This document shows, one piece after another, positions 934 through 12,338 of a stretch of DNA of 64,000 nucleotides (the stretch's first letter is position 1; each line of letters starts with the position of its first letter). The DNA comes from a virus. Under the pieces are notes generated by a model. It made no database searches and was not told the origin of the DNA. It was given only the letters and a program-made list of their open reading frames with translations. The position numbers were made by a program, and so were the translations under genes. The DNA lies in IMG/VR virus record IMGVR_UViG_3300045110_000102, positions 1 through 64,000 of that record; one strand, 5' to 3'.

Positions 934-1108
934 TTTGCAGCGCGGCTATCTGCCCGACGGCAAGGACCGACAGCATCCGGTGAAAGACCCTGATGACCGT
1001 GAGCAGGTGTCGGCACCGGCGCTGTGGCGTAACCCGGGAATCCGGACTTGGTACAGCACGGTTAATTATCCGAACGTGCCTACCGGTCCGGTGATCGATG
1101 TCAGATGA
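926..1108 (+). CDS. Small hypothetical protein (60 aa)
   Basis: GTG at 926 with GAGGA upstream; overlaps both neighbours in operon fashion. Confidence 0.55.
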
Positions 1109-10200: not shown

Positions 10201-12338
10201 AGTTCGATCCGGCGGTTGGTCCGAGTTGGCTTCCTCCCGGCGCGCTGATGCACATCGACTTCCTTGTGCCGCGCGCATGGGACGGCGTTGTCGATGTGGT
10301 CTTGTCAGCGAGCAGCATCGGCTATCAATGCCTCGGCAACGATCCCAACACGAACGCTTATCTCGCACCGCTCACCACCGGCTACGATTACGAGCGCATC
10401 GAGGCGACCGGCTATTACTATCACGAGACGTGGCCGCTCCCGGCGTACATCTCAAGCATGCGTCAAGCCGTGCTCGCCGATTGCACGGTGGTGATCACGC
10501 TTGCATCGCAGAGCGATAGCGCTCCTCCGGAGATCGCGTTCGTCTCTGCTGATGGACTCACTGGCATCGTTGCCGGGACCAACGGCACAGCGGACATGAC
10601 GGTGACGTCACGGCGCGGCCCGCTCGCTCTGTCGGTGCCGGGTGCGTGGGTTGTGCCGACGTCGGCGGAGTATGTTCGCAACCGCTATGCGTTCACATCC
10701 ACGGCGGGGCGGTTCGAGATTGCGGTGAACGGCTCGGCTGCTGCCGCTGGTGTGGTCGATGCGACCGACCGCGATGCGACGGTGGTTGCCATTGCGAACA
10801 AGGGCGCGAACATCGAGAGCATCACGGTGTATCCGCCGCTCGCGGACGTCACCGGCTTGTCGGAGTTGAGTTCTCTGACAGAAGCGCCACCGCCAACAGG
10901 TGGCAAGCCTGAGTGGGTGCCTGCAGATGCGACGCTCTACATCGACTTCCTGAACGGCGGGCGCGCTTGGGATGGCACCAACGAACTCGACGCTGCAGGC
11001 ATCGGCGCGCTGCTCGGTGCTGATGCTGGGGTGACTGGCACGGTCGCCTTCAATCCTGCGTGGATCGAGACCCACGGATTGAATCCACCAGCCTATGAGA
11101 CGTTCGCGTTCCTCGGCGCAGCAAATGCCGCGCTGTTTCCCGCTGGATCACTCGTGATGGGTTGGCGGCACGACGCGACGCTGACGGGGAGGCCCGAGAT
11201 CACGCTGTACTCGGCGGACAACAGCAAGAGCATGCGGTTCTATCATCCCGACAACACGTGGTACATGTACGGCACCGGCGGCACGCTCTACGGAAGCGAT
11301 GGTCCGGTCGATCACAGTCTGAACCTTGCGCCGAACGCTGGCGGCCTGACGTACAGCGGCACGGGCGACGGCGTTGATGTTCACATCTCGGCGAACAACG
11401 CGGTGCAACTCACCATCCCGGTTGGCGAGGTGAACATCCCGGCGGCTTCGCCGATGGTGAAGGGCAAGATTTCATCGAGCCACATCACCAGCCTCGCGTT
11501 CTATCCAGTGCTCGCCGATCTCGCGCCGGTGACAACGCCTGATCCGCCAGCGGACCCGAACATTCTGCCGCTGCCTCTGATCCACATCGACTTCCTCGCA
11601 GACACTGCGACGAACGCCGGTGCGACTGTCGGCATCGCTTCGCTGCTCGGCACCGACAACATCGCGCAGAATAGCGGGATGCCGAACAGCTACAACGCGG
11701 CGCTCAACCTCGGACCGACCGGCTACTGCACTGGCTCCGATACTACGTGGTGCGGCTTCATCAGCGCAGCCAAGACGGCGATGACCGAGGGCGCGACGAT
11801 TGTCTACAAGATACTCGTCGATGGCGCGGGCTTCCCGCTCCAGAACATCACGCACGGCTACTACTCCAACCAAGCGGCGGCGCGGAGTCTCAAGGCGATC
11901 TTGGATCACACGCTGACGACGCTGAAGCTGCAGGGCGATGACGGAGTCTTGTGGGTGGATGAGTCGGACGCTGGTGCGATCAGTGTCGTCGTCGGTGAGA
12001 TCAACACGGTTGCTCTGCAGATAATCCACACCGCGAACTCTATGGACTCGATCATGTGGGTCTCGGTGAACGGCCAGCCCGCCTTCGGCAGCATTCTCCC
12101 GAAGACCAACGCGTCATGGTCCTTCGCCTACACTCTGTTCGCGAGTGGCAAGAACCGCATCCAGTCGATTGATATCTACAAGAACATCGGAGTCGCTCCG
12201 GCGATGCTGCCAGCGCTGAGCGCGCCGCCAGCAGCAGCGACCGCACAACAGGTTCGCCGCGTGCACGACACGTGGAAAGAAGGACGACGCAACGCCAACA
12301 TCGGCAAGCGCAACAAGAGAGGACGCAATGCAAGATAA
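7254..12338 (+). CDS. 1694-aa multidomain adhesin-like protein (6 repeated LamG/ConA-like modules, 3 IPT/TIG-like domains)
   Basis: Repeats PxWxPxGAxxxIxF...RAWDG; IPT-like PTLTGISPATG...FTLTATGTNF; ATG start may be 7263. Confidence 0.75.
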   Translation: MIIMGYNFPSAPIYGEVYEDYAWDGEKWMCGKLSAPGWVPQGALVHIEFYGGVARAWDGTGLLDGVGISALLGNDPNAGMWSGGSEYSPDGVTENGYDYNAFNGSYYAPAAVGVLKALLPNALTYVVTCNFDEWYAEMYMALIPEGADTGNVEIWSTVGGNIAAYTDSGVGLELPGAYNTEPGVFKQNRIAFTHRPPIDGAEGLLAISANGSEAVQAPLTGADFLGGLNSSWYIDNIPLHAITIYEEQPVEALQVLSNLHLAPEIRALTPRDVEISGAAFELTVQGFSFDEAAVVQVDGVDVPTVYSSATVLTATLQGSVTTATVQVTVKGGDARVSNAHEVAFYDRITGPTWALGASVFIDLIKPGRVWTGTEVLDADAATGIGLFLGHDDATNAYVGGSYTCYDQRVVQIEGYNSSWLNGTNRIPAYLDAIKEYLLSTEGATLQVTTRTTAGWWVKRPKLVFTSNNAANYITVQQAAAAYTLTARAGPLNLTADGCFVEPTGESYEQYIRNRFALTLAGTRLEFAANGVAASLVSATLTEADRPSANPLTGIVEDGYNIESIALYAPLPDTTGLVELSSLDATAPPALVPTLTGISPATGETGGAAFTLTATGTNFTATSVINAGSIDVATTFVSDTTLTASLTPPLIDGNVLVLVKDGAATTTGFEIVFTTPMPAPDWVPEGAEVFIEFTGAGTARAWDGVAEYDAATIEGALLGKDADSDMWNYDSLYDPAAITDLGYDYYSVSAAYAPAALGKLKQMLAEGLTLVIKYGLNSLHNDPYLAFNSGQPSAIEISLSVAEVVSVYSPNGRVTLVGQAFDQATADGERYPNVIAYTLTPTRSEISINGMQAKAENMGQIDFPNGPPTGLYLDGGDIVSIAAYPPQAKEQLPLLSAVPVKAYSVMPVEVPINTTIVEVTVKGANFFNCVVQVDGIDQPNIFTDSPTSIRMVSWNSGMTVGEERVVTVRNILTDEVSSAVLMRQFDPAVGPSWLPPGALMHIDFLVPRAWDGVVDVVLSASSIGYQCLGNDPNTNAYLAPLTTGYDYERIEATGYYYHETWPLPAYISSMRQAVLADCTVVITLASQSDSAPPEIAFVSADGLTGIVAGTNGTADMTVTSRRGPLALSVPGAWVVPTSAEYVRNRYAFTSTAGRFEIAVNGSAAAAGVVDATDRDATVVAIANKGANIESITVYPPLADVTGLSELSSLTEAPPPTGGKPEWVPADATLYIDFLNGGRAWDGTNELDAAGIGALLGADAGVTGTVAFNPAWIETHGLNPPAYETFAFLGAANAALFPAGSLVMGWRHDATLTGRPEITLYSADNSKSMRFYHPDNTWYMYGTGGTLYGSDGPVDHSLNLAPNAGGLTYSGTGDGVDVHISANNAVQLTIPVGEVNIPAASPMVKGKISSSHITSLAFYPVLADLAPVTTPDPPADPNILPLPLIHIDFLADTATNAGATVGIASLLGTDNIAQNSGMPNSYNAALNLGPTGYCTGSDTTWCGFISAAKTAMTEGATIVYKILVDGAGFPLQNITHGYYSNQAAARSLKAILDHTLTTLKLQGDDGVLWVDESDAGAISVVVGEINTVALQIIHTANSMDSIMWVSVNGQPAFGSILPKTNASWSFAYTLFASGKNRIQSIDIYKNIGVAPAMLPALSAPPAAATAQQVRRVHDTWKEGRRNANIGKRNKRGRNAR

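What the first reader, a model, noticed from the sequence alone, without database searches (positions are those of the whole stretch)
1098..12338. 11-kb fibre cassette in the head module with possible plug-and-socket branching
Seen: three large fibre genes sit between MuF and the prohead protease, far from the tail fibre at 26720. The collagen protein ends in three ~37-aa repeats (SDTxP...LWW/F...F..Y/F.D.SS.QW), and the 971-aa protein has one more (SDTMPVGAANNVLWWDSTRGKLFINYADADSTQF). Both downstream proteins start with the same motif (DFPDNPTVGDVYGPYTWDGEKW and NFPSAPIYGEVYEDYAWDGEKW). Inference: the N-terminal motif is a plug that docks on the SDTxP repeats, giving a branched capsid appendage: a collagen stalk (~200 nm if fully triple-helical), secondary fibres and a multilectin tip.
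Basis: partly seen in the sequence, partly recalled or inferred. Interest (0 to 1): 0.75.

Follow-up and report, generated by a model that had tools for sequence, protein, structure and literature searches.

The report
Multi-protein collagen fibre with docking modules
An uncultured 80-kb contractile-tailed phage encodes, among its head genes, a ~200-nm collagen-like stalk followed by two large binding proteins that share a short foldon-like N-terminal tag; across hundreds of phage contigs this tag travels with a ~40-residue "SDTxP" module in the gene just upstream, so the pair is probably a portable connector for building multi-protein fibres, though binding is untested.

Summary
Three fibre genes (1098-4331, 4345-7257, 7263-12338) lie between a MuF-like gene and the prohead protease. 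The SDTxP repeats and the shared N-terminal motif are real and non-random.

The window is 1-64000 of an 80.6-kb virus contig whose ends overlap, which suggests a circular genome. The cassette is conserved in related uncultured phages. There the collagen gene always comes first, and 3-7 following genes all start with the motif.

The plug-and-socket idea gains real but indirect support:
- 46 of 51 motif-selected viral loci have an SDTxP module upstream.
- 51 of 55 SDTxP-selected loci have a motif-started gene downstream.
- 29 of 30 complete cassettes begin with an SDTxP protein and 28 of 30 end with a motif protein.
- The pair recurs in unrelated phage backbones, including T4-like cyanophages.

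- The plug looks like a relative of the T4 fibritin foldon.
- The pair is not capsid-specific; in cyanophage MC09 it sits in the baseplate/neck gene region.
- Capsid attachment here rests on gene position only.

No binding was modelled. AlphaFold monomer models were too poor to use.

The nearest known kind is the branched receptor-binding systems of Klebsiella phages, but there is no sequence homology to them. This scan has noted collagen fibre cassettes in head modules of other genomes before.

The parts
1..933 (+). 3' part of a MuF-like minor head protein gene. The gene continues from the other end of the contig, whose ends overlap.
   Evidence: PHROG head-morphogenesis and minor-head families, E about 1e-10. 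The contig ends overlap by 77 nt exactly, about 86 nt with one mismatch.
1098..4331 (+). P0001, the proposed anchor and stalk protein (1077 aa). It has a group-specific N-terminal domain, a collagen-like stalk, two foldon-like motifs, three SDTxP modules and a C-terminal helix.
   Evidence: It is the first gene of the cassette in all relatives and never carries the N-terminal motif.
1098..1397 (+). N-terminal ~100-aa domain of P0001, the candidate virion-attachment (anchor) domain.
   Evidence: 54-77 % identical in 13 collagen proteins of the same phage group, most on 82-85-kb contigs. No Pfam, PHROG or cultured-phage match. The AF2 model has pLDDT 45.5 and is unusable.
1398..3782 (+). Collagen-like region. 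It holds 13 GXY runs totalling 726 aa (~208 nm), interrupted ten times by S-T/V-V/I-P and once by a foldon-like motif.
   Evidence: Pfam PF01391 E 3e-102.
2553..2621 (+). Foldon-like motif 1 of P0001 ([17 protein letters not shown]).
   Evidence: A profile of these motifs matches the T4 fibritin foldon at E 6e-10.
3786..3854 (+). Foldon-like motif 2 of P0001, directly before the SDTxP repeats.
3885..3995 (+). SDTxP module 1.
   Evidence: AF2 secondary structure shows four short strands per repeat, at low confidence.
4017..4127 (+). SDTxP module 2.
4155..4250 (+). SDTxP module 3. It is shortened and lacks the D-G-S-S-Q-W tail.
4275..4328 (+). C-terminal helix of P0001 (..[13 protein letters not shown]), conserved in relatives. 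It is an alternative docking site.
   Evidence: Similar ..LEAR.. tails end other upstream partner proteins.
4345..7257 (+). P0002, a secondary fibre (970 aa from ATG 4345). It has the N-terminal plug, a glycine-rich shaft with TKQYVD-type motifs, four foldon-like motifs, one SDTxP module and a ~280-aa C-terminal domain.
4345..4425 (+). N-terminal plug of P0002 (MAMDFPDNPTVGDVYGPYTWDGEKWVT).
   Evidence: 18 invariant positions fall within residues 2-28 across homologues that are only 32-33 % identical by BLASTP. DNA pattern hit.
6205..6315 (+). SDTxP module of P0002. A foldon-like motif follows at 6352.
6409..7254 (+). C-terminal domain of P0002, the probable receptor-binding tip.
   Evidence: ESM Atlas gives viral look-alike clusters at 0.95 and TM 0.68-0.82, with a weak lead to the Mtd second domain. 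No Pfam or PHROG hit.
7263..12338 (+). P0003, a terminal multi-domain protein (1691 aa from ATG 7263). It has the N-terminal plug, then six divergent ~200-aa modules interleaved with IPT/TIG-type domains.
7263..7343 (+). N-terminal plug of P0003 (MGYNFPSAPIYGEVYEDYAWDGEKWMC).
9027..9239 (+). IPT/TIG domain of P0003 (best Pfam stretch).
   Evidence: PF01833, E 3e-11, 2 stretches.
12328..13490 (+). Three small ORFs (12328-12621, 12618-13070, 13074-13490) between the fibre genes and the protease. They may be fibre-associated, but their function is unknown.
   Evidence: They are conserved in the relatives that carry the cassette, at 53-82 % identity. No family or PDB match.
13423..14676 (+). Prohead protease, the downstream boundary of the cassette. 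The true start is probably ATG 13492.
   Evidence: phrog_530, E 3e-89. N-termini of relatives.
26720..29002 (+). Conventional tail fibre (26720-28555) with its assembly chaperone (28565-29002) in the tail module. It shows that the cassette fibres are additional.
   Evidence: Position after the baseplate genes. phrog_136 tail fibre assembly protein, E 2.5e-4. It lacks both motifs.

Best explanation
The three genes most likely encode one multi-protein virion fibre built from portable connector modules.

P0001 is the anchor and stalk. A group-specific ~100-residue N-terminal domain would fix it to the particle. About 208 nm of collagen-like triple helix, kept in register by foldon-like knots, forms the stalk. 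The far end carries SDTxP modules and a short helix.

P0002 and P0003 have no anchor of their own. Each begins with a ~25-residue foldon-like beta-hairpin tag (M-x-x-[ND]-F-P-x-x-P-x-x-G-x-x-Y..W-D-G-x-K-W). I infer that this tag docks on the SDTxP-bearing distal part of the preceding protein. P0002 would dock on P0001, and P0003 on P0001 or on the SDTxP module of P0002. The stalk would then end in two different binding heads: the P0002 C-terminal domain, and the six LamG-like/Ig-like modules of P0003.

The likely function is long-range, multivalent adhesion to host surface structures.

Shown: the genes, the motifs, conservation of the cassette, the genomic coupling and polarity of the two modules, and foldon homology of the internal motifs.

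Inferred: physical docking, the exact contact site, trimeric state, the attachment site on the virion (head or neck is suggested only by gene position) and the ligands.
For: 1. Cassette grammar in relatives. MuF, then the collagen protein (no plug, conserved own N-terminus), then 3-7 genes that all start with the plug, then three small ORFs, protease, cement protein and capsid protein.

2. The plug is the most conserved part of the fibre proteins. There are 18 invariant positions in residues 2-28, against 32-33 % identity for the two distant homologues.

3. The plug is N-terminal. 171 of 193 HMM hits have a Met within 6 residues upstream. In a search of 1.84 billion representatives, many of the listed top 150 hits match once at residues 1-35.

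4. Coupling in both directions.
- 46 of 51 plug-selected IMG/VR loci with at least 2.5 kb upstream have an SDTxP module within 4.5 kb upstream on the same strand.
- 51 of 55 SDTxP-selected loci with at least 3 kb downstream have a plug-started ORF.
- Opposite-strand control: 0-2 hits.
- The plug DNA pattern occurs in 107 IMG/VR stretches but only 2 times in 596 Gb of bacterial genomes, so background is negligible.

5. Polarity. 29 of 30 complete cassettes start with SDTxP and 28 of 30 end with a plug. Counts correlate (Spearman 0.50, p 0.005) and are equal in 24 of 30.

6. Portability. The same grammar occurs in a 62 % GC myovirus with an E217/Pam3-type head, in about 41-kb contigs, and in the T4-like cyanophage MC09. 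From the C-terminal tails compared, SDTxP appeared to be the only recurring element of the upstream partners; this was not tested systematically.

7. Foldon-like and SDTxP modules are often adjacent in the same chain (13 F-S and 5 S-F pairs among 219 modules), and plug-SDTxP tandems are common. The two module types therefore plausibly pack together.

8. The phage has a separate conventional tail fibre with its own chaperone.

9. An experimentally validated precedent exists for the logic of a primary RBP branching domain plus a conserved N-terminal docking peptide on the secondary RBP: Klebsiella phage KP32/K11/KP34 (PMC13352976; PMC6872550).
Against: - No interaction was modelled or measured, because only monomer AlphaFold was available. 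Both models were poor (pLDDT 56 and 45.5).
- Co-occurrence could simply reflect common descent of a modular fibre family in which SDTxP is a frequent shaft element.
- SDTxP modules outnumber plugs in the window (4 versus 2) and in some loci (7 versus 1). A few cassettes have more plugs than SDTxP modules.
- Among cassettes with more than one module of a kind, count equality is not above chance (8 of 15, p 0.36).
- The plug's similarity to the foldon suggests it could merely nucleate trimerisation.
- Part of the plug (Y-x-W-D-G-x-K-W) is a generic beta-hairpin that also matches Kelch blades, DUF2510 and fucose-lectin blades.
Confidence: 0.55

Rival explanations
1. The N-terminal motif is only a foldon-type trimerisation or registration nucleus. 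Each of the three proteins would attach to the virion independently, and SDTxP modules would be ordinary shaft knots. The co-occurrence would reflect shared ancestry of a modular fibre family, not binding.
For: - Profile-profile match of the plug to the foldon-like motifs (81 %, E 1.3e-5).
- The foldon-like motifs are true T4 foldon homologues.
- SDTxP occurs in tandem arrays (up to 7) and inside plug proteins, as a shaft element would.
- The stoichiometry test is not significant for multi-module cassettes.
Against: - It does not explain why the motif is almost always at the extreme N-terminus.
- It does not explain why the first gene of a cassette never has it.
- It does not explain why the motif is far more conserved than the internal foldon-like motifs.
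- Proteins consisting of this tag plus a variable body would still need to attach to unrelated virions.
Confidence: 0.2
2. The plug docks on the upstream protein, but not on the SDTxP modules. The contact could be the C-terminal helix (..[11 protein letters not shown]) or another surface. SDTxP would merely mark the partner protein.
For: - P0001 and its relatives end in a conserved helix after the last SDTxP module.
- Several unrelated upstream partners also end in ..LEAR..-type tails.
- SDTxP numbers do not match plug numbers in the window.
Against: - Most upstream partners in other phages end differently (..DARL tails, or SDTxP right at the C-terminus) and share no element except SDTxP.
- In seven cases the upstream protein ends within a few residues of an SDTxP module and the next gene starts with the plug.
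Confidence: 0.15
3. The cassette encodes tail or baseplate side fibres, or neck whiskers, that merely happen to be encoded in the head gene block. It would not be a capsid appendage. This rival concerns location only and is compatible with docking.
For: - In cyanophage MC09 the same module pair lies between baseplate genes and the neck genes, in the gp9-gp12/wac position.
- PHROG labels for the collagen protein are nearly all 'tail fiber'.
- From my own knowledge, phage T5 encodes its L-shaped tail fibre away from the tail genes.
- Foldon motifs recall fibritin neck whiskers.
Against: - The phage has a regular tail fibre plus chaperone after its baseplate genes.
- The cassette is embedded, without predicted terminators, between MuF and the protease in all relatives.
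- Capsid fibres exist in alphaproteobacterial myophage 7-7-1, where the fibre protein is still unidentified (PMC12796354).
- From my own knowledge, supported by the hits, the collagen-like protein gp12 of SPP1 is a capsid binder.
Confidence: 0.45

Closest known systems
Branched receptor-binding protein systems with an anchor, a T4gp10-like branching domain and a conserved N-terminal docking peptide (Klebsiella phages KP32/K11/KP34; Ackermannviridae CBA120-type). Sources: PMC6872550, PMC13352976.
   Same: - The primary protein carries the only virion anchor.
- The secondary proteins are encoded directly downstream.
- The secondary proteins start with a short conserved N-terminal peptide, followed by variable binding domains.
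- The system is modular and exchangeable between phages.
   Different: - No sequence relationship. KP32 gp38's conserved peptide and gp37 do not match the plug or SDTxP profiles.
- The proposed socket here is a ~40-aa repeat module, not a T4gp10-like domain.
- The primary protein here is a ~208-nm collagen stalk.
- The genes lie in the head block.
- The interaction here is untested.
T4 fibritin (wac) foldon, Pfam PF07921 Fibritin_C
   Same: - Six internal (D/E)APxDGxxY(G/A)RxxxxW motifs in P0001 and P0002 are foldon homologues.
- The N-terminal plug resembles them in its first half.
- The fibres are presumably trimeric.
   Different: - The T4 foldon is a single C-terminal trimerisation unit of a coiled-coil whisker. 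Here the motifs are internal knots in collagen and glycine-rich shafts.
- The plug variant is N-terminal, carries a 3-11-residue insertion, and does not match the foldon significantly with HMMER alone.
- The T4 wac N-terminus does not match the plug.
Capsid fibres of flagellotropic Agrobacterium myophage 7-7-1 (PMC12796354), and the phiCbK head filament
   Same: - Long flexible protein fibres on a contractile-tailed phage. The host here may be an alphaproteobacterium, going only by unchecked first-reader notes on this genome.
- The fibre is in addition to normal tail fibres.
- Fibre length is of the same order (88-114 nm measured for 7-7-1, about 208 nm possible here).
   Different: - The 7-7-1 fibre protein is unknown, so no sequence comparison is possible.
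- No Agrobacterium phage appeared among the cultured-phage hits for either module.
- The location of the fibre on this phage is unknown.
SPP1 gp12, a collagen-like auxiliary capsid protein
   Same: It is a collagen-like trimer encoded within the head gene block that binds the capsid surface (my own knowledge; literature hits).
   Different: gp12 is a tiny protein with a few GXY triplets and no distal domains or partner proteins. There is no sequence similarity outside the GXY repeats.

Membership tests
Collagen triple-helix repeat protein (PF01391) | Long uninterrupted Gly-X-Y runs that match the Pfam model above its cut-off | tested here: met
   E 3.2e-102, 13 stretches. 726 residues in 13 GXY runs.
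T4 fibritin foldon (PF07921 Fibritin_C) | A ~27-residue motif (PEAPxDGxxYVRxxGxW) forming the beta-hairpin trimerisation unit | tested here: met
   Internal motifs: P0002 matches Fibritin_C at E 8.5e-6 (26.3 bits, cut-off 21). Foldon tags in PDB entries match at E 3.7e-5. A profile of 17 motifs hits the T4 wac foldon at E 6e-10.
T4 fibritin foldon (PF07921 Fibritin_C) | The N-terminal plug motif itself belongs to the foldon family | tested here: inconclusive
   hhalign of the plug against the foldon-like profile gives 81 %, E 1.3e-5, over 13 columns. The plug HMM scores the T4 foldon at only -0.1 bits, and Pfam finds nothing in the plug alone.
Branched RBP systems (anchor + T4gp10-like branching domain + conserved peptide) | The secondary RBP is encoded directly downstream and starts with a conserved N-terminal peptide | tested here: met
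Branched RBP systems (anchor + T4gp10-like branching domain + conserved peptide) | The primary RBP carries a T4gp10-like branching domain, and the docking peptide is homologous to that of KP32-type RBP2 | tested here: not met
   No sequence match of the plug or SDTxP profiles to KP32 gp38 or gp37. No Pfam or PHROG gp10-type hit in P0001. The fold was not testable because the models were poor.
Branched RBP systems (anchor + T4gp10-like branching domain + conserved peptide) | A demonstrated physical interaction between the branching element and the peptide | not testable with these tools
   Only monomer structure prediction was available. It needs AlphaFold-Multimer, pull-down or cryo-EM.
Capsid (head) fibre or decoration protein | The protein is bound to the capsid shell (hexamer centre, three-fold site or penton) in the virion | not testable with these tools
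   Only gene position between MuF and the protease supports this. The same module pair lies in the baseplate/neck region of cyanophage MC09. The anchor domain has no recognisable relatives.
Concanavalin A-like lectin / LamG (PF13385) modules in P0003 | A match to a LamG/ConA-like family model, or a confident fold match | tested here: inconclusive
   Pfam finds only IPT/TIG in P0003. ESM Atlas look-alikes at 0.92 include clusters with Laminin_G_3 in 36-100 % of members. No structure model was made.
IPT/TIG Ig-like domain (PF01833) | A match above the Pfam cut-off | tested here: met
   E 3e-11, 43.6 bits against a cut-off of 20.9, 2 stretches.

The most novel reading that the evidence does not exclude
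The SDTxP module and the foldon-like N-terminal tag may be two halves of a universal, portable phage-fibre connector. Three SDTxP units from a trimeric fibre and three N-terminal hairpins from the next trimer would interdigitate into one small beta-propeller-like knot, comparable to the six-bladed trimer of two-blade fucose lectins. This would let phages daisy-chain or branch up to seven different binding proteins onto one stalk. In this phage group the whole tree would be mounted on the capsid or neck by a 200-nm collagen tether.
Probability: 0.15. Interest if true: 0.85.

Novelty: new variant of a known kind. Interest (0 to 1): 0.62.

Why it matters
If the tag-module pair is a real docking joint, it is a second, sequence-unrelated solution to building branched or serial receptor-binding complexes.

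It is also widespread. More than 500 SDTxP loci were found in IMG/VR. A search of 1.84 billion protein representatives gave 4,890 clusters matching the tag profile, although that count also includes unrelated Kelch and DUF2510-type repeat proteins. The pair reaches cultured T4-like cyanophages, yet neither module has a Pfam or PHROG family.

It would allow three things:
- Predicting which 'hypothetical' phage proteins ride on which fibre.
- Explaining cassettes of up to seven consecutive fibre genes.
- Offering a compact (~25 aa + ~40 aa) connector for host-range studies in laboratory phage-host pairs.

For this phage group it also flags a very long collagen appendage, encoded among the head genes, whose position on the particle is worth imaging.

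Tried and rejected
1. AlphaFold2 monomer of the P0001 C-terminus (foldon + 3 SDTxP + helix) gave pLDDT 56.1. The anchor domain gave pLDDT 45.5. Both are too poor for fold searches, so none were run.

2. I recalled a resemblance between the plug and the N-terminus of T4 fibritin. I tested it on the T4 record and found no match.

3. Homology to the KP32 gp38 conserved peptide or to gp37: none.

4. Plug versus SDTxP as copies of one repeat, which was my first idea: hhalign was not significant (P 0.05).

5. Counting only 'orphan' SDTxP modules (those without a neighbouring foldon or plug in the same chain) made the count match worse (20/32 versus 24/32). The stoichiometry test restricted to multi-module cassettes was not significant.

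6. PDB sequence searches with the SDTxP profile, the P0001 C-terminus, P0003 and the small ORFs found nothing. Plug hits to fucose-lectin, Kelch and DUF2510 repeats reflect a generic Y-x-W-D-G-x-x-W hairpin.

7. Cultured-phage searches with whole P0002 and with the anchor domain gave no match. Staphylococcus phage hits to SDTxP are not significant (E 0.06-0.8).

8. A first viral scan with P0002 alone, and a scan with the 22-sequence plug alignment, failed.

I stopped that step and ran the reciprocal test with a reference-based protein alignment instead.

11. No promoter or terminator pattern stands out inside the cassette.

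
Full report
**What the window is.** The window is bases 1-64000 of an 80,644-base IMG/VR virus contig estimated 95 % complete. The contig ends overlap by 77 nt exactly, or about 86 nt with one mismatch, so the assembly looks circular. The MuF-like gene that is cut at base 1 continues from the other end.

The structural genes, in order:
- MuF-like gene (..933)
- the three fibre genes
- three small ORFs
- prohead protease (phrog_530, E 3e-89)
- a cement protein of the E217 gp24/Pam3 gp6 type (PF22758, E 2e-23)
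- major capsid protein (phrog_264, E 4e-78)
- connector and baseplate genes
- an 814-aa protein and a 611-aa tail fibre, the latter followed by a tail-fibre assembly protein (phrog_136)
- tail sheath

It is therefore a contractile-tailed phage with an E217/Pam3-type head. The nearest cultured capsid proteins are at most 49 % identical.

**Check of the observation.** All elements exist as described.
- P0001 (1098-4331) is collagen-like (PF01391, E 3e-102). It has 726 residues in 13 GXY runs, about 208 nm as a triple helix.
- It ends with a foldon-like motif, three ~37-44-residue SDTxP repeats (nt 3885, 4017, 4155) and a short helix.
- P0002 has one further SDTxP repeat (nt 6205).
- P0002 and P0003 begin with the same motif. 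RBS positions and relatives place their starts at ATG 4345 and ATG 7263.
- A degenerate DNA pattern for the motif hits exactly these two sites, with none in 100 shuffles.
- Neither motif occurs elsewhere in the 80.6-kb genome, including the tail fibre at 26720.

**Extra anatomy.** P0001 holds two (D/E)APxDGxxYGRxxxxW motifs and P0002 holds four. These are homologues of the T4 fibritin foldon:
- Fibritin_C E 8.5e-6 in P0002
- foldon tags in PDB entries, E 3.7e-5
- a profile of 17 such motifs hits the T4 wac foldon at E 6e-10

P0003 has six divergent ~200-aa modules, five found by a shared W-x-P..A..[IF]-[DE]-F start motif and a sixth placed by eye at about aa 365, interleaved with IPT/TIG domains (PF01833, E 3e-11). 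Their ESM Atlas look-alikes include LamG_3 clusters at 0.92, which is a lead only. The P0002 C-terminal ~280 aa resembles widespread viral domains, with a weak hint of the Mtd second domain.

**The cassette is conserved.** Homologues of P0002 keep residues 1-28 almost invariant while the two distant ones, P0006 and P0007, are only 32-33 % identical overall by BLASTP.

In related IMG/VR contigs (capsid protein about 80 % identical) the order is always the same: MuF, then about 165 nt, then the collagen protein, then fibre genes, then three small ORFs, protease, cement protein and capsid protein. The collagen protein always comes first. It never has the N-terminal motif, and it has its own conserved ~100-aa N-terminus. 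Every following fibre gene, 3 to 7 of them, starts M-x-x-[ND]-F-P-x-x-P-x-x-G-x-x-[YF]..[WF]-D-G-x-[KR]-W.

The anchor domain is confined to this phage group: 10 further collagen proteins, mostly on 82-85-kb contigs. It has no match in Pfam, PHROGs or cultured phages.

**What the plug is.** Profile-profile comparison links the plug to the foldon-like motifs (81 %, E 1.3e-5, 13 columns). It does not link the plug to SDTxP.

A profile search of 1.84 billion representatives finds 4,890 clusters at E <= 1e-3. Among the 150 best hits listed, two classes are visible:
- proteins of 52-964 aa with one match at residues 1-35, some with two tandem plugs
- multi-repeat proteins such as Kelch propellers and DUF2510-type repeats

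The second half of the plug is thus a generic beta-hairpin, which also matches fucose-lectin blades weakly. The full N-terminal form is a distinct phage class.

**Test of the plug-and-socket idea by comparative genomics.** The plug DNA pattern occurs in 107 IMG/VR stretches but only twice in 596 Gb of bacterial and archaeal genomes. Chance matches are therefore negligible, and the element is essentially a feature of free viral contigs.

With HMMs built from the window and its relatives:
- 171 of 193 plug hits have a Met within six residues upstream.
- 46 of 51 loci with at least 2.5 kb upstream of the first plug have an SDTxP module within 4.5 kb upstream on the same strand.
- In the reverse direction, an SDTxP alignment retrieved more than 599 stretches. 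Among the best 80 loci, 51 of 55 with at least 3 kb downstream carry a plug-started ORF.
- Opposite-strand ORFs gave 0-2 hits.
- In 30 complete, non-redundant cassettes, 29 start with SDTxP and 28 end with a plug. The commonest layouts are S-N (16), SS-N-N (5), S-NS-N (2) and SSS-N-N-N (1).
- Counts correlate (rho 0.50, p 0.005) and are equal in 24 of 30-32 cassettes. This is significant overall (permutation p about 1e-4) but not among multi-module cassettes (8 of 15, p 0.36).

The same grammar is present in the cultured T4-like cyanophage MC09. There a 'tail collar domain' protein with three SDTxP modules is followed by a plug-started gene. A 943-aa protein with SDTxP and foldon modules is followed by two plug-started genes. 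All lie between baseplate genes and the neck genes.

The tag is conserved across phages whose virion proteins are unrelated. From the C-terminal tails I compared, SDTxP looked like the only recurring element of the upstream partners, although I did not test that systematically. This makes the SDTxP-bearing protein the most economical candidate for the socket.

Foldon-like and SDTxP modules are also often adjacent within one chain, and plug-SDTxP tandems at N-termini are common. The two module types therefore plausibly pack against each other.

**What remains open.**
- Binding was not modelled. Only monomer AlphaFold was available, and both models were of low confidence.
- In the window there are four SDTxP modules for two plugs. 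Whether the invariant first two modules are structural and only the last one, plus that of P0002, act as sockets is a post-hoc reading.
- The plug could instead contact the C-terminal helix of P0001.
- The plug could be only a trimerisation nucleus.
- Location on the virion is unknown. Gene position in the head operon, with no predicted internal terminators, and the presence of a separate tail fibre with its own chaperone favour a head or neck appendage. The MC09 context shows the connector itself is not capsid-specific.

Precedents for capsid fibres exist. Myophage 7-7-1 has one fibre per penton whose protein is still unidentified (PMC12796354). SPP1 gp12 is a collagen-like capsid binder (my own knowledge).

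**Comparison with known systems.** The logic matches the branched RBP systems of Klebsiella podophages and Ackermannviridae. In those systems the primary RBP has an anchor and a branching domain, and the secondary RBP has a conserved N-terminal docking peptide. This has been validated by deletion and swapping (PMC6872550, PMC13352976). There is no sequence relationship to KP32 gp37 or gp38, and no T4gp10-like domain was detected here. I therefore file this as a new variant of a known kind, not as a member of that family.

Other follow-ups in this scan have described collagen fibre cassettes in head modules of other genomes. None that I saw described this tag-module pair.

- The SDTxP-selected loci are the 80 best matches and may over-represent one subfamily.
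- HMM thresholds affect the module counts.

Noticed in passing
window 12328-13490: Three small ORFs (97, 150 and 138 aa) sit between the last fibre gene and the protease. The first overlaps the end of P0003. They are 53-82 % identical in the relatives that carry the cassette, and a related Rhizobium phage head module (MN988468) shows no genes at the equivalent position. They match no family or PDB entry. They could be fibre chaperones or the capsid-side adaptor.
   Followed up: partly
window 1-933 and contig end (G000:C1 80370-80644): The contig ends overlap by about 86 nt with one mismatch, so the assembly looks circular although IMG/VR lists it as linear. The MuF-like gene spans the junction. 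A 1270-aa ORF (76317-80129), which an earlier unchecked note of this scan reads as a portal fusion, lies just upstream.
   Followed up: partly
window 1650-3680 (P0001 aa 185-859): The collagen runs are broken ten times by the same four-residue insert S-T/V-V/I-P, usually in the context G-A-(D/A)-S-T-V-P-G-P. The same insert occurs in collagen proteins of unrelated cassettes (for example L014). It may be a regular kink or a modification site.
   Followed up: no
loci L054, L055, L058, L082, L101, L118, L122 and others (IMG/VR): Many upstream SDTxP proteins in other phages end with a conserved tail ..[SAN][AD]AR[LI]-stop, about 400 aa after the SDTxP module. This looks like a distinct, widespread C-terminal fibre-tip family.
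   Followed up: no
P0079, P0082, P0085, P0093 (representative library): Some small phage proteins carry two N-terminal plug motifs in tandem. Under the docking model these would be bridging adaptors.
   Followed up: no
window 23768-26212: An 814-aa protein after the baseplate genes matches phrog_17470 (unknown function) at E 3e-171. It is probably a second tail-associated fibre or spike and lacks both connector motifs.
   Followed up: no
L206 (Bradyrhizobium sp. SRL28, NZ_JAHEAG010000001) and L205: These are the only two matches of the plug DNA pattern in 185,579 bacterial and archaeal genomes. The Bradyrhizobium one is presumably a prophage and hints at the host range of this module family.
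   Followed up: no
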